DNA of 63,954 bases, filler included, from Stramenopiles sp. TOSAG23-6 (GCA_900128565.1; 4 parts of 4 records of this genome joined end to end with filler, not necessarily neighbours in it), one strand, 5' to 3'; shown: positions 1 through 33,925, counted from the first letter of the whole stretch. The notes: generated from the sequence alone by a model not told the origin. Translations and numbers: made by a program.

Positions 1-53
1 TACGAAATTTTGTACCTAACGATTTTTTTTTGAAATATTTTTCCAAAATACAT
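1..53 (+). other. Family-A non-canonical intron, 3' part
   Basis: TACGAAATTTTGTACCTAAC...TGAAATATTTTTCCAAAATACAT consensus; no AG before the coding sequence resumes. Confidence 0.75.
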
Positions 54-277
54 TGAAAGCGTGTTCCGAAATTCAAAAGACAGCAGGCAAACAACTACGG
101 GACTTTCTACCAGCTGCAAGAGCTATGGTACAAAAAAAAGGTTCCGATTTATGGACCATTCGTCAGGAGGCTTCAAAACTTGCTACGTCATTCCCAATGC
201 CAGGTATAAACACTATGCCAAAAAATCTGCGTTATCAATCGCTGGATCAAGCTGAGGCAGTTCTCCAAGAGCTCTAA
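54..277 (+). CDS. SHMT: Last exon of serine hydroxymethyltransferase (partial)
   Basis: EIQKTAGKQLRDF...LATSFPMPG resembles the eukaryotic SHMT C-terminus; preceded by the 3' part of a family-A intron (1-53). Confidence 0.7.
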
Positions 278-900
278 TTTTATGATGATTTGTTTTTTTT
301 GCTCATTTTGGGATATGAAATCCCTCATTTATACTCTATAATTTGAATTTCCATCAGGATATTAAAAGAATTTTACGATTCAGAATAAAACTTCCTTAGA
401 AATTATTTATAAATTGTATAAATATTGAATAACCAATATAATTCGTATCAATCAACCACTGAAATATGCTATTCTATTTATTGCCGATTTATAATATTAT
501 TGATATATTGATAAGTCTACGTATATTTAGTGTTTTGATTTTTAAAAAATAACAAATCTACTACATCGTTACTTCTTATACACATATTGGCACGGATTTC
601 GTGTCAATATCCTTAATTAATATCCCAAATCGGGCGTTTCTTATAATAAAAAATCAAATTTCCTTTTCAGATCTGATCACACGAAATATTGTCAAGCGAA
701 ACGGTTACATTTTAGACCTTGAATAAAACTAGCAGTCAGTAGCCTATCATAATAATATAGTAGAGTATAAAGTCAAAAATGTTGAGTAGCCAGAATATCA
801 ATGAGTTTTCTCTATAACGAGGCAATGATATGCTAAAAGCCAATTATATGATATCATTGAGAAAAGTCGTAAAGTTAAATAATAGTGTGTACTTTTAAAA

Positions 901-3645
901 ATGAGGCTAGAAACAGACAAAAAGGTTTCGGACATTTCCAATACGTCTTTTACTCGACTTGGGTTTGAGTTACCCAATATAATTCTAAGACCACTTTCCC
1001 GGGATAAAATGGCAGTCATTGATAAAGCAAAGAAATCTCAATCATCTGAAAACCTTATGTTATTGAAGAAATGGAAACCTCCTAGAAGTAATGTAGCTAA
1101 ACGACTCCTTGGAAGTCCATTAATGAAAGGTCGGGTTCCATCAAACCGGAAAAGTCAAACTAAAGTTATTAAAAATATGAAACATAAGACAGTAGACGTC
1201 ATGAAATCGTCGACTACATCGCATAAGTGGCAAAGCATTGCTAAAATGAACGTTTCTAGTCGAAAGAATAAAACTTTGACTCCTCCTATTCCAACACCAA
1301 AAATACCCAATCCTCTCACAGGTAGTGTTTTTGGAGATTGGCAGAGAGAAGTCAAAGATACTCTTCAATCTTTAGAACCAAAATTAAACGTTTCAACTGA
1401 TGTAGATTCAAAATCAGCATACCGACGTGGTGAAAATATTGACGTCCGTGGTGATGTATGGCATATGCAAGGAGGTGGTAAACTTCGACTCAAACCTGCT
1501 CTTCAAAAGCGACGACGAAGAAGACAAGTTATACAAACAACAGTTGGCCCAATGAATAAACATGCAGCTCGATTACTTGGACTTATTTCCCAGGAAACAG
1601 ATGAAGCACGTAATCGTCCAAAGCCAGCTGCCCCAGATTTATATTTTGTACGGAGAGCTTCTGTTCCTTCTAGATTTCCTTCATCGATGCAGAATTTATG
1701 GGAAGATATACCAGATAGAAATCCAATGTGGAAATCTATGCGTCACTGTAAGCCAAAAAAGTATGGAGAATCAGGTTCTTCAACAGCAGTATTTAAAGAT
1801 CAATTAGTTAATGACTTTGACACAAGTCGTATAAACGATTATTACTTGGACACGAAATCGATTCCGCTGGAGTCTACTCATCACAAGAAAAAACTTTTCG
1901 ATGATAATAAAAGAAAAAAGCTAAATGAAGGTGATTTATCTGAGATTAAGGATGCACCAGATTGTTCTGTATCTATCGAAGATTCCCCTGACGAATTATC
2001 AGGTATAAATGAAAAACATAACAAAAATGCAATAAAAACGACAAAAGAAATTATTGAAAGCGTTGAAAAAGCTCATAATAATCAATTAGACAGTATATTT
2101 TGGACAAATTCTGTGCTTTCCCCAATTGCCGCAGCTATGGATCATTCAGCGCTTCTTCCTTCACGATACCAATTAAATAGAACACAAACTAGATTGATGT
2201 ATCAACCTGATCCAATTAAAAGAAAATTTGCCCAAAGTCATAATAGTGGTGAAAGTTTTCCATATGCACCTCATGCCCATGAAGCTGCATTTAAAATTCA
2301 AAGACTTTTCAGGCAAAAGTCAAGACTTCGACACCATCATGTTATTGGTATGCAACGTTTGTTTCGCTCGTATATTATCCGTCGTAAGATACATCAGCGT
2401 CGTATGTATATGATGCATGTTTTACCAAGTATTCAGCGAATGGTTAGAGGTATGCTGGCGAGGAAAAATCTTCGAGAAGACAAATATATTTATAAACAAC
2501 ACAGAGCGGTAATCATACAGAAAAGAATACGTGGCAATTTTGGTAGACAGTTAGCTTTACAGCATGCGAAAGCACGACAACATGATAAAGCAATAGTTAT
2601 ACAATGTGCAATCAGGGGATATATTTGGCGTAAATCTGTCAGAAAAAAACGAGTTGAAGACGCAGCACCAACAGTACAAAGGTATATGCGTGGGCTTACA
2701 ACTAAAGCATCTATAAGAAGACATGTTGAAATGCACTCATACAAAGCTCAATTAATCAAGGCAATGTTCCGTGGAGCACAAGGACGTAGGTGGGCTCGTT
2801 TGAAAAAATTTGAAAGACTTTGTAAAGGTTCTCTACAAATCCAAAGACATTGCCGGGGTCTACTAGCAAGATTGTACGCCAAAGCACGATATAATGCTGT
2901 AATTAAAGCACAAAGTGGAGCTCGGTATTTCCTGGGATTACTTGCATTTGAGAAGATGAGAATGATTGCGGAGAATAAGTTTGTTCATCCAAAAATTGAT
3001 GCTGAACGAGAAAGAATTTTGGAATGGCTGAAGACATTTGAAGGAAAGCGATTTTTCAAACAAAAAAAAATAGAATTAAAACAGAAGCTACGGGAGGAAA
3101 AATTAGCTAGTAAGCTTTTGGACCCTGAAATTAAAGCAAGAAGAGAAATGAGGGAAACTTTTAATATGTTTGATTTAGATGGTTCTGGATTAATTGATCG
3201 ACGAGAATTCAAATCTGTAGTAGATGCAATGGGAGAACCTTTCACTGCCGCTGAATTGGATGCATCTTTTCGTGAAATGGATGAAGATGGGAGTGGTGAA
3301 GTTGACTATGGAGAGTTTAAACATTGGTGGTTGAGTAAAACAAGTAAAAGTGGCGCAAAAATTCAGTTATTAAAGGTGAAATTAAAAGCATATCGAGCAA
3401 TGAGAGTTCTAATTGGCGCAGAAATTAATCAATTAACACATCGTCATATTATGATGGAAAAAACTGCAATTGTTGTAAGGCGTGCACGAATATGGTGGAG
3501 GACAAAACGTCAACAGCCAAAGTATTCATGTAAAACTTGTTTGAGTGGTTTCGTCACCTCGAGGATTCTTCACTACCACATGACTAAAGGTTTATGTAAA
3601 GAAACAGATGTAACACGATTGCCTTGCAGATTCTTTGACGATTAA
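901..3645 (+). CDS. IQ-motif and EF-hand protein with C-terminal C2H2-like motif
   Basis: Many IQxxxRGxxxR repeats; EF-hands DLDGSGLIDRRE and DEDGSGEVDYGE; CKTC...HYH near the end; 914 aa intronless ORF. Confidence 0.85.
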   Translation: MRLETDKKVSDISNTSFTRLGFELPNIILRPLSRDKMAVIDKAKKSQSSENLMLLKKWKPPRSNVAKRLLGSPLMKGRVPSNRKSQTKVIKNMKHKTVDVMKSSTTSHKWQSIAKMNVSSRKNKTLTPPIPTPKIPNPLTGSVFGDWQREVKDTLQSLEPKLNVSTDVDSKSAYRRGENIDVRGDVWHMQGGGKLRLKPALQKRRRRRQVIQTTVGPMNKHAARLLGLISQETDEARNRPKPAAPDLYFVRRASVPSRFPSSMQNLWEDIPDRNPMWKSMRHCKPKKYGESGSSTAVFKDQLVNDFDTSRINDYYLDTKSIPLESTHHKKKLFDDNKRKKLNEGDLSEIKDAPDCSVSIEDSPDELSGINEKHNKNAIKTTKEIIESVEKAHNNQLDSIFWTNSVLSPIAAAMDHSALLPSRYQLNRTQTRLMYQPDPIKRKFAQSHNSGESFPYAPHAHEAAFKIQRLFRQKSRLRHHHVIGMQRLFRSYIIRRKIHQRRMYMMHVLPSIQRMVRGMLARKNLREDKYIYKQHRAVIIQKRIRGNFGRQLALQHAKARQHDKAIVIQCAIRGYIWRKSVRKKRVEDAAPTVQRYMRGLTTKASIRRHVEMHSYKAQLIKAMFRGAQGRRWARLKKFERLCKGSLQIQRHCRGLLARLYAKARYNAVIKAQSGARYFLGLLAFEKMRMIAENKFVHPKIDAERERILEWLKTFEGKRFFKQKKIELKQKLREEKLASKLLDPEIKARREMRETFNMFDLDGSGLIDRREFKSVVDAMGEPFTAAELDASFREMDEDGSGEVDYGEFKHWWLSKTSKSGAKIQLLKVKLKAYRAMRVLIGAEINQLTHRHIMMEKTAIVVRRARIWWRTKRQQPKYSCKTCLSGFVTSRILHYHMTKGLCKETDVTRLPCRFFDD

Positions 3646-5054: not shown

Positions 5055-5507
5055 ATGAAGAAACCATTACAGTTTATTTTATTACTTGTGCTAGTTGTCC
5101 AGAGGACATGCTTATCTACAAAGAGCTTGAGATGTTGTGTAAGTAAAGATAGAAGCAAAGATGAAAGGAGAGCCCGTAAAGCAAGGGCTTCCGAAGCACA
5201 AAAAATGGAAGCAAATGAGCCAAAAAGAATGNGAGCAGCAGCAATCGATGATGAGCCAGAAGTAGTTATGAGAGCATCAACAGACATTGATGAGGCAACT
5301 CTGGAACCTGAAGAGGAATTCCTTGCTAGCGTGGGAGTAAAACCAAAACTTCCTTCGCGCACGGGAGTAAATCTTGAACAAGAACCAACAAAGGAAAGTG
5401 AACAAGGTGTTCTTAGTCCAGTTGTTAGTCCAGGATATCAGGGAGATTCTGAAACGGAAGATTCTCTGCCAAGGACATTTACCGAAACGGGAGCAATGCC
5501 AAAATAA
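5055..5507 (+). CDS. Hypothetical protein with predicted signal peptide
   Basis: 150 aa ORF, hydrophobic N-terminus then acidic low-complexity body. Confidence 0.55.
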   Translation: MKKPLQFILLLVLVVQRTCLSTKSLRCCVSKDRSKDERRARKARASEAQKMEANEPKRMXAAAIDDEPEVVMRASTDIDEATLEPEEEFLASVGVKPKLPSRTGVNLEQEPTKESEQGVLSPVVSPGYQGDSETEDSLPRTFTETGAMPK

Positions 5508-5624
5508 AGTTTCTACGAAGATCTCACTTTGAATTTTTTCCAAAGAAATATTAAATACGAATTGAATCAACTACATTTATTGTAATAACTATTGTAATAA
5601 CTTGTGATTTTATTACAAATACCA

Positions 5625-8604
5625 TCATTGACTATCAATAACCTTGTTGCTTTGAACACGGTCCGCGATATCAACACTGCGCATGATTTTAGCAATTTTT
5701 TTTTTCAGATCTTGCTTTCGTCGGCGTATTTGATTTCTTAGTTGCTTTTGGTCTATTTTCCGAAGCATATTTACAGTTTTAGTGTTTGTGGGAGTTCTTC
5801 TACATCGTTCATTCCATCCATCAGCCANAATTTTAACTGCTGTTTCTCTGAGATTTTTATGATCCAACATTCGACTTCGTCGACGTAATCGATGTTTCAG
5901 ATGATTTTGCTTTGCTTTAGAATGCCCTGCCCTAGTTTCTTCTTCTATTTGCAGCATCTCGTCTTCTATTTGCATTATTAATTCGTATTGAATTTGCATC
6001 ATTGTGAAGTCTTCTATATGTCTATATCCTAGGTCTTTTACATCTTTCATCGTCTTTTTAGTTGTTACTTCTTCTATTTTCTTTATCCCTTTAGCTGCTG
6101 TTTCGCGTTCTATTTTCATTGTCCCGTTAGCCGTTGTGCGGTCTATTTTCTCTAATTCGCAACATACATTATCTATAGAACCATCATTAATTGATGCTGT
6201 GAGAATTTGTTTAGCTACAATACGAGCTTCAGGGGTATTAGTGAAGATTAAAAACTGAAGTTTTTCTGCGCGAGCCTGAGCAATCCACTGAGAATAATAA
6301 GTTATCGAGTCTTCCAGTCCTGTAGAAGTATCAAAAGCTCTNTTGACCAATTCATTTGTTGTATCATCAATTGAACCATTGAAACTGTCATAAACATTTC
6401 GTAAATCATTTATCGAACCTTCTATCAATAACATCTGCGCCATTTTGCTATTTGCAGTTTTTAGATCATCGATTCTAAGTGATTGAGATAAATATTTTAC
6501 NTTCTTTTTTTGTTTTTCGTGNATAAACTCTNCAATCAAAGATTGGGCAGAGGCACTAGAAATACACCATTTGTCAATCATTAACTCTAANGCTCCGACA
6601 TGAATTTGTCCTGATTTCAAAAGTTCCTTAAAAAATAAATGAGCACGAATTCGAGATCCGTCTATAAACCCTTGTGTATATGTATTTTGGAAAAATATTT
6701 CAAAAAAAAATCGTTAGGTACGAAATTTAGTACGAAAAAAAATTGAATTTGAAAAAAATAAAACATACATTCTTCGGATGAATCATTTGAGTCAAAAGGT
6801 TCAAGAAGTTGTGACAAAAATAAAGATCTTTTTTTTTCCATATTTTCAATATCTTTCATTGAAGCTGACGAGACGGAAATTCCAGCAGTTTTTGAAGAAG
6901 CAGCCACATCAAATAATAATTGTTTTTTAATAAAAGGTGAAATTGGGATTCCCATCTCTGGTAACTTTTGAATAATAGCCACAGATGCACCAACATGTCC
7001 AAAATTAACTAAATTATCTACAAAGGTATCTACTATTTCTTCTGTGATGATATTATTCGTCAAATAATTATTGTCTGTATTCAACTGAAATAACCCTAAC
7101 CCATCAAACGAATTAGGTGCCGTCAACCCTAACATATTTTGTTTGATCATTGTATTCATCACATTGGTCAAATCAATGACATTCCAACAAAGATGTTTAA
7201 TAATATATAAGCATTCACTAGCTGAAGCTTCACCTGAAAGAATAAGATTTTCCAAGTACGAAATACTTAATTTTCTACAAGAATTACTGAGGAANACTAT
7301 ATTTCGTTTTTTTTTGCTAGGAACTAAATCTATCACACTTTGTCTTGAAGTTAAAGTATCCCGCTTCTGTAATTGAAAGATAACGTCATTTATTGTGTTT
7401 GGAATATAAGACTCGCTACAAAGATAATCACTTTGATATAAAGCTAATTCATTTTTTAGTATTTGGGTGGCAATATTAGGATTACTTTTTTGTTTTTTAT
7501 CTCCTTTTTCATTGAAAATATTTTTTCTTTCAACAGCTGAAAGACACTCATTTTTTTTTACATTTTCAATAAATTCATCAGCTGATGCAAATCGTTTCAG
7601 CTGCTCTCTATTATTCAACATAGTTGCAGCTTTGTTCATATTAATTCCTACGATTGATTCAATCGCTTTTTTACGAGCTTCTATGGTATTCGATTCTGAA
7701 ACATTGATATTTCTCCCAAATATTTTCTCATATTGTTTTTGTAGTATTGGAGTTTTACTAGTCAACCCTAATAAGCACATTCTTTCTATCATCGCAGTAT
7801 ATACATCTTCTGAAATATTATGTTTTCTCGAAGATAACTCTATTAGTAAATCAGATACACCAGACATCTCATTCCATTTATGTGATAGAAAAAAACTATC
7901 CAATATGTATTGTGAAAAAATATTTAAAAAAAAATCGTTAGGTACANAATTTCGTACGAAAAATAAATTCGAAATTGAAAAAAAAATAAAACGTACATTC
8001 TACGCCGTAAAGGAAAATGAATATTAAAGTTAAATAGAATGTTTTCTTTCACAGTTTTAGAATTCGTACTCGATGCTATTTTCTCACTCAAATAAGTATT
8101 TGTTTTAGTCAGATCAACGTCTGTTAATTTCTGTGTTGATGTAGGGTTAGGGTTAATGTCTGTTAATTTCTGTTTTGATTTTTTCTTTTTCAACTTTAGA
8201 GTTAATTTCTGGGCAACTCTGGCTTTTTCACGATCTTCTTTCTTTACCGAAATACCATGTAGTGCACCCATTTGTATATTCAAATTATTAGAAGGATTAT
8301 CTAAAGAGAAATCATTATTTTTTGAGTCTACATTGTTTTGTTTTTTTTTGATTTTTGTCAGACGATGTTTTTCGTTCCAAGCTTTTTTTAACTTTTGAAA
8401 GTTGCTTTCATTTTCATAAAAAAGTGCATTTATATATGATTCAGCGTCTTTTTTATTATGATCATTCTTCTTATATACCAATGACGTAGACTTGTCGGTG
8501 TTACTGAAGTAGCGCAAGATTCCTGCTACTTTTCTTTTCTGCATGCGACTAACACGAAATATATTGAAAGCAGCATACATAGCAGATCTACCAGTTCCTA
8601 TCAT
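5625..8604 (-). CDS. Helical-repeat (PPR-like) protein, 3 exons: 7997-8604, 6769-7904, 5625-6679
   Basis: Three ORFs join in frame on removing family-A introns 7905-7996 and 6680-6768; basic N-terminus like a mitochondrial presequence; VYTAMIERMC is PPR-like. Confidence 0.65.
6680..6768 (-). other. Family-A intron (GT...AT, 89 nt)
   Basis: GTATGTTTT...GTACCTAAC...CCAAAATACAT; removal restores the frame (EEYTQG). Confidence 0.8.
7905..7996 (-). other. Family-A intron (GT...AT, 92 nt)
   Basis: GTACGTTTT...GTACCTAAC...CACAATACAT; removal restores the frame (RRILDS). Confidence 0.8.
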
Positions 8605-8928: not shown

Positions 8929-11028
8929 ATGTTTATTCGCTATTCGAGATGCTTGATACCCTTAGTAAAGACCCAGCGTATGGCATTACATGCATCTAGT
9001 TTTCGTGTATCCAAGAATAGTCATACAAAAAACAAGTGCAACTCAATTTCTTTGACGTTGCCCCANAACTTTAGTATTGGTAAGGCAAGTAGCACACTTC
9101 AGACGAAATTTAGAAATAAAGATGAAATATATAAGTTTTACAAGATAACAGATATTTCCAAGAACAGTAGATTTGACTGGCGAAAAGCTGTGAATTTGTA
9201 TAAGCAACTTTTGAACAATGGTCTTGCTTGTGAGAAGGCATTAGACAGAATTGTCTTTGTACTGCANAAGGAATATAAGCCAGGTCGTGCCGAACATATT
9301 TTCAATATATCTATCAAACAAGGNATACAGCCATCACCTTGGGCATACTCAAGTATGATCCGTGTTATTGCAATATCCAGTCAAGATAAATTAGTGTCTC
9401 GACTTTCAGATAACTTTATCAAATTCGGTTGTGAGAGTAAAACAAAAAAAAATAGATTGACTTTTGAAACAATTGAAAACGCGCAAAATCAAGATATTGT
9501 GGTGAAGTGGCGCTGTGAGNCTATGTCCTACTTACTTCGAAATGGATCGTCGTATTCTACTCGTGCGCGAGATATTTTCTCCTCGGCACTTCGAGCAGGT
9601 CCAAAACATACAAATTATGCAATGTACGTTTTTATTTTTTTTTTTACAAAAAAATCGAATTTTTTTTTTTTTTTTTGGTAAAAAAATTTTGTACCTAACA
9701 AACTTTTTTAGATTTTTTTTTGAAATATTTTTCCAAAATACATGCTCCAGGTTTTGATACAAAATGAGACAAGTTCTAGAAATNTAGAAAAGTGGATTAG
9801 AGACTTTTTAGATTCGAAAGGAGTATTCGTTGATACTTTTCAAAGTACTTTTGAAAACAAAGACANTATGTTTTTGTCTCCAGTAAACTACGCAACACTT
9901 GCATCTGCATATGCTGTAGAAGGGAAATTTGCACTTGCAGAAGCTGTACTAAAACATATGGGTAGTTTGTACACTTTGTCGGATAGTTTATATTTTAAAA
10001 CACATGGCATGCATATACCTAAACAAAATCTTGCAAAATTAAAGCAGGTCAAGATCGTCGAAGCAGGAAAGATTCGTTATATAAATCAATTGGATAAACA
10101 ACAATCCGAAAGTGCTGAAAATGACACTCTACGATCTAAAGCAGCTGTCACTTTTATAAATATTTTGGATTTGCATCCCGATGGCTCAAGTGGTGTTCGA
10201 AAAAGAATATTAGGTCGAGAAAGTCTAGCTTCTCTTCGAGCTACATATATGAAAAGAATAAATATAGCTTGTAAGAAAGGTAAAACCAATGATTTACCTG
10301 TAAAAAATGCTTCAGATTTTTATAATAATTTATTGACGAAGGGATTAGTCGATAGTAATTTATTTATATATCTTACCAAATTGGTACCATTGGATGCAAC
10401 TGAAACAGAAGAATTATTTTATCGGAGTATAGAAAAAGGTGTGAAACCTTGTGCAGCAATGTGTAATCGGGTTATTCAATATTTTATGTTTGAAGCATTN
10501 AATGCCCGTGCACGGGAGACTCAAATATTTGCAGAAAATTCTACNGATTGTTGTAACACAGAATTGCAACACTTTTTTAAAGAATCTAGTCAACAATTTT
10601 ATAATAATCGAGCAGGATGTAGGTTTTCATTTTTTTTTTTCAATTTTTTTTCAATTTGTTTTTCATACGAAATTTTGTACCTAACATTTTTTTTTTTTTA
10701 AATATTTTTTCATAATCCATACATAGATAGATTTATTAGGAGTAATCGATATACAAAAGCTTTGGAAATATTTCAACGTATAGCTACTGCACGAAATCTA
10801 GATATAAAGATATGTTCATCAATTTTGCGATTTTTAGAGCAACAGAAAACAAAAGGTGTAACATTAGCTTATAAGCCAGACTTTATTATGGCAGCAATTC
10901 ATACTTCTGGGTTTAATATACCTGAAAATGTTTTAAAAGGAAAGGAAAATGTGAAATTTAATTCTAAACAAAGAATGAAAGAAATCAGGGAATATTTATA
11001 TCCCCGTAGGCATAAAAAAACTCTATAA
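8929..11028 (+). CDS. PPR-like helical repeat protein, 3 exons: 8929-9623, 9744-10618, 10721-11028
   Basis: PSPWAYSSMIR, VNYATLASAYAVEG and GVKPCAAMCNRVI are PPR-like; ORFs joined by two family-A introns. Confidence 0.7.
9624..9743 (+). other. Family-A intron (GT...AT, 120 nt)
   Basis: Consensus ends; the nearest downstream CAG gives a frameshift and stop, the CAT end is in frame. Confidence 0.8.
10619..10720 (+). other. Family-A intron (GT...AT, 102 nt; in-frame AG alternative at 10726)
   Basis: GTAGGTTTT...GTACCTAAC...CATAATCCAT. Confidence 0.7.
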
Positions 11029-11095
11029 TAAAAATCTTTCTTGTTTTATAATATTCTAATATTTTTTCACAGTGGAAGATAGATACTTCATTTTG

Positions 11096-14000
11096 TCATA
11101 CCTCAAACCCATTCCTTTCAGATATTTTTTGTCTTTTGGGGGTCTTTTTAGGTTGAATTTGATCTGAAAAATTTGGCTTAAATCCAATACGTTTTAAATT
11201 TTCCCACCAATTTATTCGAGCATACCATAAAGTACATTTCCTCTGTAATTCTGGAGAACGCTCTTTATATGGAATACTACCTTGAGCATCACCAAGTAGC
11301 ACAGGGAATAATTTTGATTTTTCATATTTTGGCTCATTGACAATATTGACGCCGATAATTGCTTCTGCNTGATCTAATAATTCCCACTCCTCTGAGCTTG
11401 GAAATCCTGTCGCACCTTTAGCAAGACGTTGAATATTTACTGGTNTCCCATGTCGCAAAGCCGTTACGTATTGTGAAAAACAATGTCAAATTCGAAATTC
11501 GTTACGAATGAAATTTGGTAAAAAAAAATACAATTTAAATAACTAAGCACAACGTACAATATATGACCAACTACAGTATTCGTTTTAATCATACTTTTCA
11601 TTGCAATACTTTCAACATGTTCTCCAGATTGAAATGCTAAATAACTCACTTCCCAATTATGAAGATTTCCATTTTTTTTTCGCTTATATATCGCATGTTT
11701 CCATGGTTTTTTCGGTACGAGTTCAATGGGAAGTTTTAAAGTTCTCGATCTTTTTTTTGTTACCCATCCATTATTTGAATTTTCCTGTCCCATTCCTAAA
11801 CCAAATTCTTTCAACATACTTTGTAATAATTGAGCTAATTTTTCAACACCTGTAATGCGCACACCCATGGTACGTAATGCATCCACTGATGTAGGTTGAC
11901 AGTAAGCTATTTGCTTCACCACATGATCCGGAATGACCGACACAGGAGCCATATGTAATTCAATCGCTCGTTCATTACGCCAATTGTACACTCTCTGGAT
12001 AAACTCTTTCAGATCTTTAACATATTTTGCAGCATTCATATCTCCCTCCATAGCCTTTTTTTCATATAACTGAATTTTTCGAAACCATTTTTTATGTGAA
12101 TTTGTTACAGGGCCCTCAAAACCAGCATCTTGTTCACTCTTTGGTATTTCATTTATATCTACACCTGCATTTTTTAATTCATTTTGAAGCTTTTNGATTT
12201 TTTCTGCTGCTGCCGCCTCATAGACGCGAATACTTTGTGGAACGGGCAACATGCATTGTGAGAAAATATTTTTTTTTTGGTTAAAACAAATTATATGAAA
12301 AAAATCGAAATTGAAAAAAAAAAAATTAATTTTAAATTGAAATGAATGATGAAAACAAACATAATCGATTCATTAGTTTTGATATATTTTTGACCTTTAC
12401 TTGTTAGAGAATACACATCATATGTGTTTGTATATGTAGTACCATAAATTTGTTTTGAAATTGTCTTTCTTTGTATATATTTTCCATTAAGTAACTCTGG
12501 GAGCAAACAAATTAGAAATTCAACCGATGAATGTTTCGATGGTAAATTCGATCTTTTTGTATCATTTTTGATACACTGTTTCAATCTTGTCTTTGGTAGA
12601 CTAGTGTTTTGAAGATTTTTCAAAACAATTCTTGATTCATCACCAAAGTTACGACAAAGATCATCTGCATGTATTTTGGAAAAATATTTCAAATCAAAAA
12701 AAAATTGTTAGGTACAAAATTTCGTACGAAACAAAAATTCATTTTTAAAAAAAAAAAAAAAAACATACATATTTCTCCTGGAATATACAATTATCACAAG
12801 TACCACACCTATTACCAAATGTAGGATTTTCTCCAAAATAATGCAATAAAAATCGACGTCGGCATCCTTTTGAATCACTTGTAAATGTACGTAAAGCATT
12901 TGTGCTTTTTGCTATTATTTTTTGAACGGCGACAGACTTCCCTCGGGTATAAAAGTCATTACTATACTTAGTAAAATCTGAATCTTTATATAATAAAAGA
13001 CATTCTGCAGTGAAACCATCTCGACCAGCACGACCGATTTGTTGGAAATATGCTTCAACTGTTTGTGGTGGTCCATGTATTGTGAAAAATATTTTACATT
13101 GAAATGTTTTATTAGGTACAAAAGTTCGTATGAAAAAAAAAAATATATATATATATATATATTCAAGTGTTTAAAACTAAAACGTCCATAATGATAAATT
13201 CTACGAATATCAGGTTTGTCAATACCCATACCAAACGCTAACGTTGCAGTCACTACTTGAACAGCACCTGAAAGAAACTTTTGGTGAGTGTCTTCTCGAG
13301 CATTTTTACTCATCTTACCGTGATACGACATACATTTAAACCCTAACCCTAACCTTGAAAAAGCTTTCGATAAACAAGACTGAATTTCATCCACTTCAGC
13401 TGTTGTGGGTGCATAAATGATGGTCGATCCAATTGCCATTTTATTAGAAGAAAGAATCGTATCTAGAAGAATCTGAAGATCAGAGTGAAGGCCATTTTTG
13501 CCTTTTTGTTTGACTGATATTTTTAAGTTAGAACGATCAAATGAATTAATACTCACTTTTACACTTTTTGGGTTCATTCCTAAAACCCTAATGATATCAC
13601 GCTGGACATTTGGAACTGCCGTAGCTGTAAGCGCCATCAGAGGGACATTTGGTATTGACTGGCGAAATTTGCCAAGGGCCATAAAATCTTTTCTAAAGTC
13701 ATGCCCCCATTCGCTCACACAATGAGCTTCATCAACTGCCAATAGTCCCAATTTACCACGTTGAGACAGCATTTGCAGACGAGAAAGAACGTTCCCCGAC
13801 AGCAGCTTCTCTGGAGTCAAGAAAACGACCTTGAAGACACCAGACAAAGCACGTTCGACAGTATAATCATGTTGTGCAGATCCAAGAAAACAAGCCAATG
13901 GTTCTTTTAAAACAGACCCAATGGTATTATTCATATTAATTACTTGATCCTGCATGAGACTGATGAGAGGGGAAACTACTATAGATATCATACCAGACTG

Positions 14001-14309: not shown

Positions 14310-14690
14310 TATAATTATTTTTTGTGAGACATTTTTTGCTGTTCTGTTTTTTTTTGAGTTTTTGACCGAAAAATCTCGAAAAATCTTGTTGACCACCATC
14401 AAAATTTTCGTTCCAGGCACGTTCCAGCCGCGAATATTTTGCGATATTTTGCAATTTAATTATTTTTGGTGCATCTTTGGCACAAACTTTTGAAGAAAAA
14501 TAAAAAATCAAATCGATCAAATTATTTGATAATTAATATTTTAGTATTTTACTAAGAACTAAATCAATTTATAAGTGATAATCATATTAGTAATTAAAAT
14601 TTAAATCTTAAATATTTGTGTACAATAATTATATCATCATGAGTGATAGAGTGATAAGTTAATTGGTTCAATGCCAGGTAGGTTCAATGT

Positions 14691-15917
14691 TTATGCATCT
14701 GATAAACCATTTTCATTTATGTTCATAGAACCTTCAAGAGCTTTAGATAGATCATTTTCGACGTCATTATCAATTGACAAGTGATGCATCATGTGTTGCA
14801 TCTGTGCCTCTGGGTCATTTATTGTTGATTTTTCGCCAGCATCATTCTCCACAACATCTGAAAAGGAAAAATGCCTTCTTGCTCCACCTGCGGCTGCGGC
14901 TGCTACGGGTGCGCTCTCACTTCTTCCTCTTGGTAGACTTGGAGGGGAGGGGCGGTTGACAATGGCACCAGCTCCAGCCCTGGCATTAGCAGCAGCACCA
15001 CCACCATTAGCAGCAGCACCACCACAATTAGCAGCAGCACCATCACAATTAGCATTAATTGGTGTTTTTGGTGGCGCAGTTGGTGTTGGTTTTACTTCAG
15101 GCAGTGACTGTTCTGGTAGTTCAGGTAGTGGAACTTGTAGCTTACGGAGCGATGGATACGGAGACAAAGCGCCATTCGGGGCACTTCTACTTCTTCCTCT
15201 TGGTAGACTTGGAGGGGAGGGGCGATTTCTGTTGGCAACAGTTCCAGCGGTGGGAACTTGTAGCATACGGAGTCCAAGCATGGTGTTCAAGGGCATGCTG
15301 GCACTTCTTCCTCTGTTCAAATTTCGTGGGGCACCCATAGGTATGCGACCAACTACATCATCTGATGGCAGTTGTATACTCAACAAAGCGCCATTCGGGG
15401 CACTTCTACTTCTTCGACTTGGAGGACGTCGAAGTGGTGCGCGATCATCATCCGATGATACTTGAAGCTGTGCAAAACTAGCCGCTGTGAGAACTTCTGC
15501 ATTTTCATTATCGTTCAATCTAGCGCTAGGTCTAGGTGCACCTAAGCTGGGCCGTCGTTGAGGGGAACTGTCAGAAGGAACAGTAATTCTCCAATTCAAA
15601 AGATCTTCTGGTGCACTGTGACGGCGCCTTGGAGGGCTTGGAGGTACACTGGGTGTCAAGAGAAACTGAGGTGATTCGTTATTGTTGGCTTCAATGCTTG
15701 GGAAAGCTGACGCTGTTTCTGCCAAATCAAAAGATCGTCGTCGTTTATGAGGACTCAAGAGACGACTATTTTCTGGGTTGCGGTTGCCGTCACTTAAATC
15801 ACTTAAATCAAATCCATTAGCACGAGAACGACGAGAACGAACTCGTTTTGCTGCATTGATGCATATAATAAAACATAATGTAAACAAAAATGTCGCTTTT
15901 GATTGATATGTTAACAT
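14691..15917 (-). CDS. Signal-peptide protein, Pro/Ser/Arg-rich with repeated RSxSxP motifs
   Basis: 408 aa ORF; hydrophobic N-terminus; internal repeats NRPSPPSLPRGRSxSAP and RSRSAPNGAL. Confidence 0.7.
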   Translation of the reverse strand: MLTYQSKATFLFTLCFIICINAAKRVRSRRSRANGFDLSDLSDGNRNPENSRLLSPHKRRRSFDLAETASAFPSIEANNNESPQFLLTPSVPPSPPRRRHSAPEDLLNWRITVPSDSSPQRRPSLGAPRPSARLNDNENAEVLTAASFAQLQVSSDDDRAPLRRPPSRRSRSAPNGALLSIQLPSDDVVGRIPMGAPRNLNRGRSASMPLNTMLGLRMLQVPTAGTVANRNRPSPPSLPRGRSRSAPNGALSPYPSLRKLQVPLPELPEQSLPEVKPTPTAPPKTPINANCDGAAANCGGAAANGGGAAANARAGAGAIVNRPSPPSLPRGRSESAPVAAAAAGGARRHFSFSDVVENDAGEKSTINDPEAQMQHMMHHLSIDNDVENDLSKALEGSMNINENGLSDA

Positions 15918-16107
15918 TTTGCTGGAGATTTAAATATATAATACGATTGAAAAAATTGTCGGAAATTTTACCGGCTTTTATTGTCAGCTGACCAATATTT
16001 TAAGTATCAAATTTCGTACCAAATCAAAGGCTAGTTCCTACGATGACGTACTCCATTTCTAAAAAAAAAGTCAAATTTTCGCCCGAATTTCGAATTTATT
16101 TTTAAAA

Positions 16108-16892
16108 TTAACACATTGTTTCACCAACAGCTGGAGACAATGATAAGGCTGCAATACCTTGATGAAACCGAGCAAGCATTGATGTCGTAAACATTAATTG
16201 TCCACCAGGTAGAAACTGCCTAAGTAAAACTTCGATTTCCTCAGGTCTTCTAGCAACTAGTGACGGACAATCAGCGAGGTCAGAGTCTCCTTCTGGATCT
16301 GTCAAGTGAAATGCTAAAATTTGTTCAAACATTTGTAGGAAATGGCAAACAAGGGTTAAATTATCAAATTCATCGCAAATAATTGAATATCCACACTTTC
16401 CAACTTTTCGCCACACAATATACATTGGTTCGGAGAACCATTCACTGATGGAAGTGTTGTGAAAAATATTTTTTTTTATAAAAAAAATCGTTAGATACAA
16501 AATTTTCTATAAAAAAAAATTAGTTAAAAAAATCATGATGAAAACATACGTTGTCGAATTACACCACTCATAATACTAACAGGGAAAGTGGGTTTTAGAG
16601 ATGTTTTTTTTTCAAACGCTTTTGTGTCAAATGAAGTGTTGTATCTAGATTTAGGCATACCCCAATACCAATGAGCATTCTTCAATGAACTTTCTGGTAA
16701 GTTGTACTTTTGATCTAAATTTTCCAAGCCTTCCATAAATGGTTCAAGGATTTCGTTGTGCTTTTGAAAACCATTTGAGTTATTTTTGTTTTTCGAGTTT
16801 TGATTCCCAGGGATATGAATGCTTGGAGGCTTATGATTTTCTCTTTCACTAGCAAGAGTTGCTAAGGCAAGGTTACAGTTCCTCTCAAAGGC
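16108..16892 (-). CDS. AP5S1: AP-5 complex sigma subunit-like, 5'-partial (exons 16550-16892, 16108-16451)
   Basis: FSEPMYIVW...DNLTL...PEEIEVLLRQFLPGGQLMF resembles the AP5S1 C-terminal FLPxGQLLF region. Confidence 0.75.
16452..16549 (-). other. Family-A intron (GT...TT, 98 nt)
   Basis: GTATGTTTT...GTATCTAAC...CACAACACTT; restores GVIRQPISEWF. Confidence 0.75.
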
Positions 16893-16958
16893 ATGTACAA
16901 TGAAAAAATATTTCAAAATTTTTTTTGTTAGGTACAAATTTTTTTTTTTTTTTTTTGA
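16893..16958 (-). other. Family-A intron, 3' part at contig end
   Basis: GTACCTAAC...TGAAATATTTTTTCATTGTACAT. Confidence 0.65.
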
Positions 16959-17058
16959 NNNNNNNNNNNNNNNNNNNNNNNNNNNNNNNNNNNNNNNNNN
17001 NNTTAATTAATTAANNNNNNNNNNNNNNNNNNNNNNNNNNNNNNNNNNNNNNNNNNNN
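16959..17058. other. Artificial contig linker
   Basis: N-run, TTAATTAATTAA, N-run. Confidence 0.99.
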
Positions 17059-17117
17059 TTTCGTACGAAATTTTGTACCTAACGATTTTTTTTTTGAAAT
17101 ATTTTTCCAAAATGCAT
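17059..17117 (+). other. Family-A intron, 3' part at contig start
   Basis: TCGTACGAAATTTTGTACCTAAC...CCAAAATGCAT; a CAG at 17121 is a possible alternative acceptor. Confidence 0.65.
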
Positions 17118-18488: not shown

Positions 18489-19511
18489 TTAAGTACTGTT
18501 TTCTTCAAATATAAAAGTTCTGGCAAGGGCGCCATGTAAAGAAAAAAGTTCCTGCAACAATTTATTCTTTAGATTCTTCGGCTTTAATTCTGTAAATCCA
18601 ACAAGTATATATCGTGTCCCTTTCTCAACATTTTCTCCACTATGCCACACTTTACTTTGGTGCATTAGAATAGAACCTCGTTTGAGGCGTACAAGTGAAT
18701 CCGAGCGAATGAATCGAGTACCACCACCAGTGAAATCTCCTTCAATAAATGAGTTGAGAGCTATATTAAAGGAAACATGATGACCGTCAACGTGAGGTGC
18801 TAAATATGATTGTCGTTTTGGATTATATCTTACAATAAATGCATCTTTCAGTACTACATTACAATCATCTTCACCGAATACACAAAATCTTTTCACAATT
18901 AGTGGAAATACTTTATCACGTAGTATTGGATTTACAATTTTTGAGACATCAGGAACGTCCTTCATAGGGATATCTTCAGTAGGATGATATCTATGACGTG
19001 TTGTAGTCCATCCAGTAGAATTTGTTGCTGAAAGTGTAGCATCAATAATATCACGGCATACACTATCGCTAAATATAGATTCATTGCTTATTATATATGT
19101 AATTCTGTTATGCGGTACAAGCATAGATATAACTAGAACGAAGAGGAAGCACCACCCAATGATGTTCCAAAGTGGATTACTTTTCTTCTCTTTATTATTG
19201 AGTTTCCAATGTAAAAGACTAATTGTGACTACACACGTGAAAAATACAATAACCACAGGTCTATTCGATGCATACTTGCCAACAGTAGATGTCAGCTCAT
19301 AAATTTCTTCCGTTACTAGCTTGTACAGAAGTGGTGCATTGGTAAAAGAAGGGGCATCGGCAGATAAAAGAACCTTCAAGGTCGATGACAGCCCAACAAC
19401 TAAAATCCAGTATAACCACGAAATTGGTTGGATAGACTTATTTGGCGACTGTAATGCTAAGTTTGGTGCGGGTAATTTTATATTGTGCATGGTGCTCTTT
19501 CTTCGTGGCAT
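18489..19511 (-). CDS. Membrane-anchored 2OG-Fe(II) dioxygenase (prolyl/lysyl hydroxylase-like)
   Basis: HVD...FTGGGTRF...HSG...GTRYILVGF; three N-terminal hydrophobic segments. Confidence 0.85.
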   Translation of the reverse strand: MPRRKSTMHNIKLPAPNLALQSPNKSIQPISWLYWILVVGLSSTLKVLLSADAPSFTNAPLLYKLVTEEIYELTSTVGKYASNRPVVIVFFTCVVTISLLHWKLNNKEKKSNPLWNIIGWCFLFVLVISMLVPHNRITYIISNESIFSDSVCRDIIDATLSATNSTGWTTTRHRYHPTEDIPMKDVPDVSKIVNPILRDKVFPLIVKRFCVFGEDDCNVVLKDAFIVRYNPKRQSYLAPHVDGHHVSFNIALNSFIEGDFTGGGTRFIRSDSLVRLKRGSILMHQSKVWHSGENVEKGTRYILVGFTELKPKNLKNKLLQELFSLHGALARTFIFEENST

Positions 19512-19841
19512 TTCAAAACTTTATTCAAATTTTTTTGATTAATTAATTTTGAGTTCAACAGCATGTTTTTGATTGATGTTTGTTTTGACTCTAGCTGAAC
19601 AAGAGTTTTTTGAAAGAAAAAAATGGAACAAACCTGAGATTGTTGATTGAATTTCAAATTATTATTTTCAAAATGTTTCAAAATCGAAACATAACAGTGA
19701 GATAATATATCCGCTTGGTTTCCCTTTACCCACCCATAGAAGCAGCAATAGGGTGGCGCTACTTGCTTTATCAGAGAATATTGTGTATAGGTTACATTAC
19801 ATCGGGAAACCCACTGGGTAACAATAAAAGGGTAAAAAGAA

Positions 19842-22800
19842 ATGGTACAGATACTATCAGCTGGATTGATATTCGTTCTATCTACCGTACTTTGTGTGAC
19901 CGTGCGTTCGAGTGACAATATAGATGTCGATGATGATGTCGATCTTACGGGCTTGGGTGGTGTCGGCAAAGCCAATTTGATGATAAATAGATCTTCCATT
20001 CATTCGGTTGCTGGAGCTGCTGGAGATGAAGACAAAGGCGAAGGTACGGAAACAACAGAAGCAAACGATAGACTATTGATATCTACTGAAGAATTGAATC
20101 ATCTTACACATTTTCTTACTATCCCAGATGTTGATTTTCAGAATAAATTAAAACATGATATTCAAACGTTCAAGGATCATAGTGAACAAAGAAAATCGTT
20201 TCTAGGAAAAGAGCTGGAAACACAAAAACAAACAACTAAAAAATTTGGGGACCTTGTCAAAAGAATTGATAAACAGATTCAAGATGCTACAAGTCATACT
20301 CAATCTTATGGTGATGATACAGAAATGCAAGAAAACGTGGAAAATGATGATGCCGAGGGAAATGTTGAAACTGCTGAAATTGCTGCAGGTGATGAAGAAG
20401 AACAGGGTGTAGATTCGCCGGGAGTTGGGGGAGTTGGAGAAGAAGAAGAAATAGACCCAGACCTCGGGGGAGAAGAAGAAGTGGAAGATGATGCCGAGGG
20501 AAATGTTGAAACTGCTGCAGACCTCGGAGGAGAAGAAGAAGAAGAAGTGGAAGAAGTGGAAATTGAAGAACATGATGCAGCTGCTGAAGACAAAGACGAA
20601 CGTGCCAGCGAATTTGAAGCTGCTGCAGCTGCTGAAGAAGGACACGACGATGTTATCGAAACACCGGAAGCTGGTGGAGAAGTAGAAGCATTTACAGAAG
20701 TATACAATAAAGATGATTATCCTCTTCTGGCTGACCATCAAGCATTAGCGGTTAAATTAAATATAAACACTGAAGAAAATGGGGAATTTATTCCATTTAA
20801 TTTTATGGTTTCTAGTGCAGCTGAAGCCGATTCTAAAGGAAAAGGGTGGATAACAAAGGACTCCCCTAATATGATAAAGGCTATGGGTGGTATAGCCAAT
20901 CTTGAATCTTTTAGTAACGAAGTAGGTCAACCTTTTACTAAAGAGTGGTTAAAACTATGCGAACAATGGGCTCCAGAAAAAGAGTGGTCCAGCAATGTAG
21001 GTGAAGAAGCAAAACTAGATGATATTAAAAAATTTCAATTACACATAAAATCTGAAGAGGAGGACGACGAGAAGGGAGGGGTGGAAGGACTCATCCTAAA
21101 ATTATTTGAAGAAGAAGGTCCTCCTGAAGAGGAAGGTGCGGTAGATATGAAAATCCATGGTAATCTATGGAGGCTTTATCATAACGCTAAAAAACAATTT
21201 GAAGATTTACTTCCTCAAGAGTACCAAGATTTAAAAAAACTTATAATACCTCTCGAAGATTGGAAAAACAAGTTAACAAATTCCCCTGGAAAACTGGTGA
21301 AAGACGGGGTTTTTAAGAGAGGAATAAAAGGCGATAAAGTTCGACAAGCAAGTATTTTAGTAGGACAACCGACCGGTGGATGGAAATTTTCCAAGGGGGG
21401 TGATGTGTACACGAACCTAGATGACATGAAAAAACAATACACTAAGGCACTAGATGATAATGATAGCAAATTAATGGTAATAAACGAAAACTTTTCTGAC
21501 ATTGATAGTGCACCAGAAGGCTATACCTTTACAAAAATTACTAAGGAATGCGGAGTTTTACATAAAAATGAAATAATAGTTGAGAGATGGTTTCCAAAAG
21601 AAATAAAGCAAAATCCTTCGCAAGAAGAATATGATGAGCAAGTTAAAAAAGTAAAAGAAGAAATTGATATAAAGGGAGATGTTGATTTTATTAAGGTTTC
21701 ATTTTCAACCATAATTGGTGATAAAAGAGTTTTTATTATAGCCAATTGGCATGGCACTAGCAAAAATGCAACTCCCAAAGAACTTGTACGTTTTCAAAAT
21801 CGAATTTCGATTTTGTTTTCGTACCAAATTTTGTACCTAACGAATTTCGAATTTAAAATATTTTTTCACAGAACTTGAGAACTTAATTAATTATTGCAAA
21901 AAATATAACGAACACGCTCTCACCGAAGATGGCATTCTGCTAAAGATAGTTGCTATAAGCGGAGATTCTAATATCACAAAAAGTAAATCCCAAACATCAA
22001 CAAGGGAAGCTTTGGAAAATATTTTGCCCAAAGACGAATTTGAACGTCTCAAAGAGGGTAAAAATTATAGCAATAAAAAAATCGTAAAATATAGATGGGT
22101 AATGAATTGCGAGAAAGATGTATTATTAAATAATCAAATTACAAAGGCTGGTCCGAATCCCAAACTTCAAGGCAGTTGCAAGTCAGAAGCAGAGGAAGAT
22201 GGAATGTTTATTGTAAATTTAATTAAGGGGGAGGCGGACAACAACATATCTAATGAAAGTGCTTCAGAAGCTAAAGGCAATGGTGGGCAGAAAAATTGGT
22301 GGGATGATCCTGAATGGAAGAATGATGATGCATATGACCAACAACAAAGAGGAGGAACACCACCACCACCACCAACAACAACAACACAACGAATACAACA
22401 TGATAAATGGAATGATTATGAGGATTTTAGGTTCAAGACGGCATTGCATCAACTCCATCGTAATCTTAAGGGAAATGATGATCATGATAATGATGATACT
22501 GTTGAGTTACACAAAAGTTCGGATCAAATGAAAAATGCAAATCTTTTAATTCATCTTGTGACAAGTAAGATGCAAGTTGAAAAATTAAAAATCGAATCTG
22601 AAAGACAGGAAGAAATAAAAAAATTGAAATTGGAAATATTCAAAGATAATGAGAAACATAGATTATCCGATCTCGAAGCAGCCCATGAAATGTTAAGAAA
22701 TACACGAATAGCCTTAGCTGCTCAACAAAACAAAATAGATTCTGTAGATCATCAGATGGAAGAAATCTTATCTAAAATGAAGAATCAAAGTTCAAATGGA

Positions 22801-33924: not shown

Positions 33925-33925
33925 T

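What the first reader, a model, noticed from the sequence alone, without database searches (positions are those of the whole stretch)
1..21876. Dispersed introner-like family A: non-AG introns in conserved housekeeping genes
At least 13 copies here and 3 more at 50787-51135 share donor GTAYGTTTT, core TCGTACGAAATTTTGTACCTAAC and end TGAAATATTTTTCMMAATACAT. Frame restoration requires ends CAT (most), CGT, CTT or TTT. Nearby AGs are out of frame at 9750, ~12665 and 21871. The RecQ HYGPP motif fixes one intron length exactly. Flanking AT repeats make GT...AT, TG...CA and AT...AC formally equivalent for many copies. G...T is the only register invariant in all complete copies and matches family B. 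The 5' end is not the U12 ATATCCTT.
Basis: partly seen in the sequence, partly recalled or inferred. Interest (0 to 1): 0.88.

Follow-up and report, generated by a model that had tools for sequence, protein, structure and literature searches.

The report
Repeated gene-interrupting introns without AG ends
A family of about 100-base repeated inserts interrupts many genes of a marine stramenopile, and the reading frames close only if each insert is cut out from a normal GT start to an abnormal, non-AG (mostly CAT) end, which would make it a transposon-like intron family with an unusual 3' splice site, although no spliced RNA was seen.

Summary
16 related copies lie in the nuclear parts of the window, 13 of them in 1-21876 and 3 in 50787-51135. 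All sit inside ORFs in sense orientation, and four contig or window ends break inside a copy.

Twelve introns have both ends: 11 in the window and 1 on metagenome contig L001. Removing each from the family's first G (GTAYGT) to its last T joins the flanking frames in 12 of 12. The first AG behind the branch motif is in frame in only 4 of 12, which is the chance rate.

RecQ with its four introns removed is one ORF and aligns without gaps to 12 homologs at all four junctions. In AP-5 sigma, the copy without terminal redundancy yields a Pro found in 10 of 15 homologs only in the GT...TT register.

Each copy carries GTAYGT, a TACCTAAC branch-like motif and a T tract. The 3' ends are C-N-T, with T in 15 of 15. 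A GT-AG intron of similar build lies in a papain gene.

My reading is a transposon-like introner family whose 3' end comes from a likely 2-bp AT target duplication instead of AG. It is a new variant of the non-canonical introners known from Amoebophrya and Fritillaria.

No spliced RNA was found. Two low-depth RNA contigs run unspliced into one copy. The splicing machinery is inferred.

The parts
1..53 (+). 3' part of a family copy, cut by the start of the window; ends ...CCAAAATACAT
6680..6768 (-). complete copy, 89 nt, GT..AT, phase 1, in an unknown gene (8616->5625)
7905..7996 (-). complete copy, 92 nt, GT..AT, phase 2, same gene
9624..9743 (+). complete copy, 120 nt, GT..AT, phase 2, in an unknown gene (8920-11028); the internal AG and the AG at +7 are both out of frame
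10619..10720 (+). complete copy, 102 nt, GTAGGT..CCAT, phase 1; an AG at +6 is also in frame
11466..11557 (-). complete copy, 92 nt, GT..GT, RecQ intron 4; the AT..AC register would create a stop codon
12251..12360 (-). variant copy, 110 nt, GTTTGT..GCAT, RecQ intron 3; same termini as the family but a diverged core
12669..12768 (-). complete copy, 100 nt, GT..AT, RecQ intron 2 (zinc-binding domain); the AG at +4 is out of frame with the GT donor
13075..13187 (-). complete copy, 113 nt, GG..AT, RecQ intron 1 between HY and GPP; a 6-nt direct repeat ATGGAC lies at both borders
16452..16549 (-). complete copy, 98 nt, GT..TT, in AP-5 sigma; no terminal redundancy; register fixed by a conserved Pro
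16893..16958 (-). 3' part of a copy at the end of contig 1 (a linker follows), in AP-5 sigma
17059..17117 (+). 3' part of a copy at the start of contig 2, in front of an ABC transporter exon (TVRAFAAEE...)
21786..21876 (+). complete copy, 91 nt, GT..TT, phase 0, in an unknown gene (19836-23217); the 8-nt direct repeat AGAACTTG spans both borders
50951..51135 (-). compound intron, 185 nt: copy 1 (93 nt, ends CAT) + AT + copy 2 (90 nt, first base A instead of G, ends TTT); only removal of all 185 nt keeps the frame
50787..50866 (-). 5' part of a copy (GTACTTTTTTCATCAT...) at the start of contig 4
53618..53714 (+). related intron of similar build (GTACTT..., GTACCTAAC, T tract) that ends in a canonical AG, in a papain-family protease gene; an internal control

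Best explanation
Family A is a non-autonomous, transposon-like 'introner' family of about 90-120 nt. It has inserted, in sense orientation, into the coding exons of many nuclear genes of a stramenopile whose closest labelled protein relative carries a MAST-3-like label. Each copy brings a strong U2-type 5' splice site (GTAYGT), a branch-site-like TACCTAAC and a T tract. The pre-mRNA is most likely cut from the G of GTAYGT to the T of the terminal C-N-T (usually CAT), 30-45 nt behind the branch motif. In 9 of 12 copies the last two intron bases (AT) repeat the last two exon bases. That is what a 2-bp target duplication would give: removing the element plus one copy of the duplication restores the original coding sequence exactly. 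This is the logic described for Micromonas introners, except that the duplicated bases are not AG. What is shown: the family exists, it sits inside ORFs, the exact removed length is fixed, the ends are non-AG, and a GT-AG intron coexists with it. What is inferred: removal at the RNA level, the use of the major spliceosome with a relaxed or re-targeted 3' site, and the transposon mode of spread.
For: The repeat family is far above chance. All 16 copies lie in ORFs in sense orientation, and 4 contig or window ends fall inside copies. Removal in the G..T register joins the long flanking frames in 12 of 12 complete copies, with phases 4/4/4. 10 of the 12 lengths are not multiples of 3, and read-through meets a stop in 11 of 12. 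Spliced RecQ is one ORF and aligns without gaps to 12 homologs at all 4 junctions. At the AP-5 sigma junction, register 0 gives Pro, which 10 of 15 homologs share; a shift of -1 gives Ser (1 of 15) and shifts of +1 or +2 give Arg (0 of 15). The first AG at least 8 nt behind the branch motif is in frame in 4 of 12, and one of those four is rejected by the RecQ alignment. The 3' ends of 15 copies have T at -1 in 15 of 15 and C at -3 in 14 of 15; the 5' exon ends in AT in 9 of 12. The papain-gene intron 53618-53714 has the same branch motif and T tract and ends in AG. There is precedent for transposon-derived introns with non-canonical ends: Amoebophrya (PMC7789003, passages read) and Fritillaria, as reviewed in PMC11282704 (passages read).
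Against: No spliced junction was seen. Two of them (X8 record 16, X9 record 24) run from the exon 35 nt into copy 11466-11557. That means unspliced RNA or DNA carry-over. The same organism splices, by sequence, a GT-AG intron of similar build, so AG is not abandoned. Copy 13075-13187 starts with GG, not GT. For 3 copies an in-frame AG 6-9 nt downstream is possible. The terminal inverted repeat is only 5-6 nt. Direct repeats at the borders vary from 0 to 8 nt, which is untidy for a transposase. The register cannot be proven from DNA for the redundant copies.
Confidence: 0.7

Rival explanations
1. They are U12-type (minor spliceosome) introns. That machinery is known to tolerate GT-AT and AT-AN ends.
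For: GT-AT ends are documented as spliceable U12-type variants (PMC1557818, passages read). The 5' end GTATGTTTT shares 7 of 9 positions with GTATCCTTT, and CCTAAC resembles CCTTAAC (my own comparison with recalled consensus sequences).
Against: None of the 12 complete-copy 5' ends aligned has the conserved CC at +5 and +6. The branch motif lies 30-45 nt from the 3' end, whereas the distance recalled for U12-type introns is about 10-20 nt. The GT-AG papain intron uses the same branch motif. AT-AC reproduces the same mRNA in only 9 of 12 copies and would actually read AT-AC in only 6.
Confidence: 0.08
2. They are removed without the spliceosome. One route would be pairing of the two ends, as in euglenid nonconventional introns or as proposed for Amoebophrya introners. 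Another would be excision at the DNA level.
For: The ends are non-canonical. A short terminal palindrome ATGTAT/ATACAT is present, and direct repeats overlap the borders in 11 of 12 copies.
Against: Folding 8 copies with their flanks gave no shared end-to-end stem. The z-scores ran from -3.85 to +0.88, and the only significant fold is an internal A/U stem. The copies do carry a consensus 5' splice site, a branch motif and a T tract, which such introns lack (PMC11282704, passages read). The copies are present in three DNA sources (X1, X3 and the window).
Confidence: 0.07
3. They are ordinary GT-AG introns, and the reader set the borders wrongly.
For: An in-frame AG lies 6-18 nt downstream of 4 of 12 copies. 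Copy 12669-12768 allows GT(TTTT)...AG if both cuts are shifted by +4.
Against: 4 of 12 is the chance rate. The AG at +18 of RecQ intron 3 would delete the conserved MLPVPQ, and the +4 register of intron 2 replaces the conserved A-D-D with V-Y-D. 8 of 12 copies have no in-frame AG as the first AG, and RecQ introns 1 and 4 and the AP-5 sigma intron have none within 40 nt.
Confidence: 0.03
4. The inserts are retained, so the genes are pseudogenes, or the inserts are assembly or amplification artefacts.
For: RNA contigs read into one copy. The assembly is fragmented and breaks at copies.
Against: The 12 complete copies (11 in the window, in 6 genes, and 1 on L001) leave long open frames on both sides that join exactly. 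RecQ and AP-5 sigma remain fully alignable to homologs. An independent seawater metagenome (X3) has contigs that break at the same repeats, and it carries the first 17 nt of copy 13075-13187 with no difference among those listed (28 differences were not shown).
Confidence: 0.04

Closest known systems
Introner elements of Micromonas pusilla and of a stramenopile (MITE-like DNA transposons that become introns), as reviewed in PMC11282704
   Same: A short, non-coding, high-copy family inside genes. One splice site is carried by the element and the other end is formed with the target-site duplication, so that removal restores the exon. Sense-strand splice signals are present.
   Different: There the co-opted 3' end is AG and the introns are canonical. 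Here the duplicated bases are AT, so the intron ends in CAT. The TIR here is only 5-6 nt, and the border repeats vary from 0 to 8 nt.
Amoebophrya introner elements and non-canonical introns (PMC7789003)
   Same: Repeated intron families with non-GT-AG ends, with direct repeats overlapping the borders and with ambiguous registers. They are likewise from a marine protist.
   Different: Amoebophrya shows no conserved terminal dinucleotides, has 8-20 nt inverted repeats that form hairpins, and appears to lack U1. Here the 5' site is a textbook GTAYGT, a branch motif and a T tract are present, no hairpin is shared, and only the 3' end deviates.
Fritillaria borealis MITE-derived non-canonical introns (Henriet et al. 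2019, known to me through the review PMC11282704 and the listing of PMC13326754)
   Same: Transposon-derived introns with non-canonical ends. Rare GT-AG introns persist beside them, and the 3' site is formed from sequence at the insertion site.
   Different: In Fritillaria the prevalent ends are AG-AC and AG-AT, so the 5' end is non-canonical too. It is an animal and the families are different. Here the 5' end is canonical.
Rare GT-AT introns of animals, both U12-type and U2-type (PMC1557818)
   Same: The same terminal dinucleotides.
   Different: Those are isolated single introns. Here a whole repeat family accounts for 16 of the 17 introns recognised in the window.

Membership tests
Introners (transposon-derived spliceosomal introns) | Many related copies at unrelated positions in different genes | tested here: met
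   16 copies in at least 7 genes. Median pairwise identity is 67% (range 49-90%). The core has 9 matches against 0 in shuffles.
Introners (transposon-derived spliceosomal introns) | Each copy is a whole intron, and its removal restores the reading frame | tested here: met
   12 of 12 are in frame in one homologous register. Alignments are gapless in RecQ and AP-5 sigma.
Introners (transposon-derived spliceosomal introns) | Removal from RNA (spliced transcripts) | tested here: inconclusive
   One search showed no spliced joint in the RNA contigs. Two low-depth contigs run 35 nt into copy 11466-11557.
Introners (transposon-derived spliceosomal introns) | Hallmarks of a transposon (TIR, TSD, autonomous partner) | tested here: inconclusive
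   There is a 5-6 nt terminal palindrome. The AT direct repeat is present in 9 of 12 copies, but border repeats vary from 0 to 8 nt. No transposase was seen in the window.
Introners (transposon-derived spliceosomal introns) | Intron positions are lineage-specific (absent from orthologs) | not tested
   No genomic DNA of orthologs was available. The one metagenome scan returned a single unrelated locus.
Canonical U2-type GT-AG introns | 3' terminal AG | tested here: not met
   0 of 15 3' ends are AG in the homologous register. The first downstream AG is in frame in 4 of 12, and one of those is rejected by alignment.
Canonical U2-type GT-AG introns | GT at the 5' end with the GTAYGT/GTRAGT consensus, a YNYURAY branch site and a pyrimidine tract | tested here: met
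   GT is present in 11 of 12 complete copies. TACCTAAC or a close variant lies 30-45 nt from the 3' end. The sense strand is 52% T.
U12-type introns | 5' splice site RTATCCTT | tested here: not met
   None of the 12 complete-copy 5' ends aligned has CC at +5 and +6.
U12-type introns | Branch site close to the 3' end (about 10-20 nt; a recalled criterion) | tested here: not met
   30-45 nt in the 11 copies that have a recognisable motif.
U12-type introns | Minor snRNAs present in the genome | not testable with these tools
   No genome is held for the window. Rfam finds only organellar rRNA and tRNA in the window.
Euglenid-type nonconventional or hairpin-assisted introns | A stable stem that brings the intron ends together, and no pyrimidine tract | tested here: not met
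   No shared end-to-end stem in 8 folded copies. A strong T tract is present.

The most novel reading that the evidence does not exclude
In this MAST-3-like stramenopile lineage the major spliceosome no longer needs AG at the 3' splice site. The dominant intron class, 16 of the 17 introns recognised in the window, is a mobile family with a textbook 5' site and branch site that ends in C-N-T. The 3' cut would then be set by element-borne context rather than by the AG dinucleotide. As a side effect, standard gene finders would break many genes of such genomes, which could make them look gene-poor or full of pseudogenes.
Probability: 0.45. Interest if true: 0.8.

Novelty: new variant of a known kind. 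Interest (0 to 1): 0.62.

Why it matters
If RNA data confirm it, this would be a case where only the 3' splice-site rule is broken, while the 5' site, the branch site and the T tract stay canonical. A GT-AG intron of the same build sits beside it. That makes it a cleaner natural experiment on how the second splicing step picks its site than Amoebophrya or Fritillaria, where both ends vary.

It would also extend non-canonical introners to heterotrophic stramenopiles. It would show an introner using a non-AG target duplication as its 3' end.

It also warns that annotation pipelines which assume GT-AG, and introner surveys which discard unfamiliar splice sites when no RNA supports them (PMC12130899, methods passage read), miss such families. 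Their gene counts for such genomes would then be too low.

Tried and rejected
- **Whole genome.** None is held for the window, so no genome-wide count and no snRNA search were possible.
- **Sequencing runs.** The search found DNA holders and two metatranscriptome runs from one sample.
- **Read-laying.** RNA cover of the unique parts was sparse (depth 2-6). Parts without cover say nothing. The summed depth over the repeat core is very high (about 800,000 in X1 and 36,000 in X3, against about 5-7 on unique sequence). The tool warns that this is not a copy number, so I take it only as 'many copies'.
- **Metagenome scan.** The scan for the 20-nt core returned a single locus, L001. It holds one more in-frame copy but is too little for a logo.
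- **Protein searches.**
  - Atg3 gave the taxonomic hint.
  - RecQ found no relative closer than 54%.
  - The word-index search with the AP-5 sigma exon found nothing.
  - The full HMMER search then gave 66 homologs.
- **RNA folding.** It showed no shared terminal stem.
- **Earlier findings of this scan.** Nothing was returned.
- **Literature, 6 searches.**
  - 'introner' together with 'MAST-3' returned 0 papers.
  - The main text of the MAST single-cell genome paper PMC5778133 contains neither 'splice' nor 'non-canonical'.
  - Supplements were not readable and may bear on this.
- **Readings rejected.**
  - AT-AC register, which creates a stop in copy 11466-11557 and would give AT-CC and AT-GC in two other copies.
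  - TG-CA register, which gives Ser instead of the conserved Pro in AP-5 sigma.
  - Translational read-through or bypass, because of the lengths, the stops and the splice-like motifs.
Full report
**What the window is.** The window is four contigs joined by N44-TTAATTAATTAA-N44 linkers at 16959-17058, 33825-33924 and 50687-50786.
- Contigs 1, 2 and 4 are nuclear and eukaryotic. Pfam finds an IQ/EF-hand protein, Atg3, a RecQ helicase, AP-5 sigma, an ABC transporter, a CH-domain protein, ankyrin and LRR proteins, ribosomal protein L1 and a papain-type protease.
- Contig 3 (33925-50686) is AT-rich and carries bacterial-type LSU and SSU rRNA and two tRNAs, so it is organellar.
- 53881-63950 is a 102-bp satellite of about 99 units.
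- The best Atg3 hit (88% identity) carries the source label 'GSMAST32...'. The next named hits are mostly stramenopiles, chiefly oomycetes, mixed with dictyostelids and fungi. No whole genome is held for the window.

**The observation.**
- The 23-nt core has 9 matches within 3 mismatches, against none in 100 shuffles.
- A profile built from five copies finds 13 hits with E below 1e-4, plus weaker ones.
- The 3' motif as typed is a compromise between two subtypes that differ by one indel. It matches only one site, while the two real subtypes match 6 and 11 sites against 0.01 and 0.21 expected.
- Four contig or window ends lie inside copies: position 1, 16958, 17059 and 50787. The repeat core collects thousands of contigs and very high summed depth in the DNA runs. 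This points to a high-copy family, although the tool warns that the figure is not a copy number.

**The copies must be removed, and by an exact length.** Twelve introns have both ends: 11 in the window and 1 on the metagenome contig L001 found with the core pattern.
- I took as borders the positions homologous to the family's first G and last T. The long open frames upstream and downstream (33 to 178 or more codons on each side) are then joined in 12 of 12.
- Intron phases are 4/4/4.
- Ten of the twelve lengths are not multiples of three, and reading through meets a stop in 11 of 12.
- RecQ with its four introns removed (113, 100, 110 and 92 nt) is a single ORF. It aligns without gaps to 12 homologs at all four junctions: IYHY|GPPQTVEAYFQQIGRAGR, EKY|ADD, NESI|MLPVP and GHI|LTAL.
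- The 185-nt insert at 51135-50951 is two copies head to tail. Only removal of the whole 185 nt keeps the frame; removing 93, 184 or 186 nt does not.

**The 3' end is not AG.**
- With the donor at GT, the first AG at least 8 nt behind the branch motif is in frame in 4 of 12 copies, which is what chance gives.
- One of those four, at +18 in RecQ intron 3, would delete the conserved MLPVPQ.
- For RecQ introns 1, 2 and 4, the AP-5 sigma intron and 21786-21876, no AG within 40 nt of the 3' end is in frame.
- For three copies in genes without homologs (6680-6768, 7905-7996, 10619-10720), an in-frame AG 6-9 nt downstream cannot be excluded.

**Which register.** Sliding both cuts together leaves the mRNA unchanged wherever the flanks repeat.
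- Shift 0 works for all 12: GT-AT in 7, GT-TT in 3, GT-GT in 1 and GG-AT in 1.
- Shift -1 (TG-CA) gives the same mRNA in 11 of 12.
- Shift -2 gives the same mRNA in 9 of 12, but only 6 of those would actually be AT-AC.
- In copy 11466-11557 the AT..AC cut gives CAT ATG TAA, a stop (read from the sequence).
- Copy 16452-16549 has no terminal redundancy. Shift 0 gives Q-P-I, and Pro is found at that column in 10 of 15 AP-5 sigma homologs, in the motif EG[VI]FR[VI]|P. Shift -1 gives Ser (1 of 15), and shifts +1 or +2 give Arg (0 of 15).
- Register 0 therefore rests on three things: this junction, the perfect GTAYGT 5' consensus, and the only invariant termini (G in 12 of 12 at the first base, T in 15 of 15 at the last).
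- Across 15 3' ends, position -3 is C in 14, and position -2 is A in 11, G in 1 and T in 3.

**Anatomy.** A copy reads, in order: GTAYGTTTT, a T-rich spacer, a small palindrome CGTACGAAATTT(T/C)GTAC that overlaps TACCTAAC, a T run, (G)AAATATTTTT, then C(C/A)(A/C)A(A)ATACAT.
- The sense strand is 52% T.
- AG occurs 0-2 times per copy: none in four copies, once in seven, and twice in the 185-nt compound intron.
- The branch-like motif lies 30-45 nt from the 3' end.
- Folding eight copies with their flanks showed no common stem joining the ends. Only one copy folded significantly better than shuffles, and through an internal A/U stem.
- The termini ATGTAT...ATACAT form a 5-6 nt inverted repeat if the two exonic bases AT are included. 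Those two bases equal the last two intron bases in 9 of 12 copies.
- The simplest reading is an element GTAY...ATAC with a 2-bp AT target duplication. The excised unit is then the element plus one copy of the duplication. This mirrors the Micromonas model, in which the 5' site comes with the element and the 3' AG comes from the duplication (PMC11282704, passages read). The difference is that AT, not AG, is duplicated.
- All 16 copies are in genes and in sense orientation. For copies inside coding sequence this is what selection would leave, so it does not tell a DNA mode of spread from an RNA mode.

**A canonical control.** In the papain-type protease gene, a 97-nt intron at 53618-53714 has GTACTT at its 5' end, the same GTACCTAAC, a T tract and TTTTTTCATAATAG at its 3' end. 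It is a weak hit to the family profile. Cutting after AG gives SWGEEIGEGGFIKLK. Cutting two bases later, at the family-homologous position, gives a frameshift with stops. By sequence, then, this organism has both GT-AG and GT-(A/G/T)T introns of similar build.

**RNA.** One run search and one read-laying were allowed.
- Two metatranscriptome runs from one sample hold a small share of the stretch.
- Laid on 11446-16958, they gave no joint across any copy. Two contigs at depth about 3-4 run from the RecQ exon 35 nt into copy 11466-11557 (X8 record 16, 11522-11785; X9 record 24, 11521-11687).
- This is either unspliced RNA or DNA in the library. It counts weakly against efficient splicing and leaves the central inference untested.

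**Things I cannot explain.**
- Copy 13075-13187 begins with GG and has the 6-nt repeat ATGGAC at both borders.
- The last seven bases of copy 21786-21876 differ from the consensus at three positions, each time towards the sequence of the upstream exon, which produces an 8-nt border repeat AGAACTTG.
- The second unit of the tandem pair starts with A instead of G and is separated from the first unit by an extra AT.

**Comparison with known systems and novelty.**
- Transposon-derived introns with non-canonical ends are known from Amoebophrya and Fritillaria. Amoebophrya has no conserved termini, 8-20 nt inverted repeats, 3-5 nt direct repeats and no detectable U1 (PMC7789003, passages read). In Fritillaria the prevalent ends are AG-AC and AG-AT (PMC11282704, passages read).
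- GT-AT introns exist as isolated cases in animals, mostly U12-type (PMC1557818, passages read).
- The family here fails the U12 tests that I could apply (5' motif and branch distance) and the hairpin test. It passes the sequence tests for U2-type 5' and branch signals.
- I found no paper that reports introners or non-AG introns in MAST lineages. 'introner' together with 'MAST-3' returned 0 papers. The main text of PMC5778133 has no 'splice' or 'non-canonical'. Supplements could not be read.
- The large introner surveys start from annotated introns, and the 2025 survey discards families with unfamiliar splice sites unless RNA supports them (PMC12130899, methods passage). A family like this one would be missed.
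- I therefore rate it a new variant of a known kind: real as a sequence feature, well supported as an intron family with non-AG 3' ends, and unproven at the RNA level.

Noticed in passing
window 16959-17058, 33825-33924, 50687-50786: N44-TTAATTAATTAA-N44 blocks look like linkers that join separate contigs. Contig ends on both sides fall inside family copies.
   Followed up: partly
window 33925-50686: An AT-rich organellar contig with bacterial-type LSU rRNA (34319-36990), SSU rRNA (37034-38526) and two tRNAs (50122-50283). It is probably mitochondrial.
   Followed up: partly
window 53881-63950: A satellite of about 99 units of 102 bp (75% matches) directly downstream of the papain-type protease gene.
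   Followed up: no
window 15983-16060 and 24352-24398 (- strand): A second short repeat shares ATTGGTCAGCTGAC...CCGGTAAAATT (2 exact copies against 0 in shuffles). It appears to lie between the listed ORFs, with a family-A-like GTACGAAATTTGATAC piece beside it.
   Followed up: partly
window 13075-13187 and 21786-21876: Two copies have long direct repeats across their borders (ATGGAC, 6 nt; AGAACTTG, 8 nt). One of them has GG instead of GT at its 5' end. No model that I tested explains this.
   Followed up: partly
window 50951-51135: Two family copies lie head to tail and are separated by AT. The second has lost its 5' G, so the pair must be removed as one 185-nt intron.
   Followed up: yes
window 5232-12195: About 20 isolated single N bases (ambiguous calls) are scattered through this stretch, including one inside copy 7905-7996.
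   Followed up: no
literature (PMC5778133): The published MAST-3 single-cell assemblies are reported with few predicted genes (about 2,700-3,300 in 19-21 Mb) and with 'pseudogenised' dynein genes. If non-AG introns like these are common in that lineage, part of this could be an annotation effect. This is speculation and was not tested.
   Followed up: no
L001 (metagenome contig, 3221 bp): It carries one more family copy (104 nt, AT|GTATG...ATACAT|GG) that joins a 181-codon frame to 47 further codons. A GTAAGT-type donor follows further downstream.
   Followed up: partly
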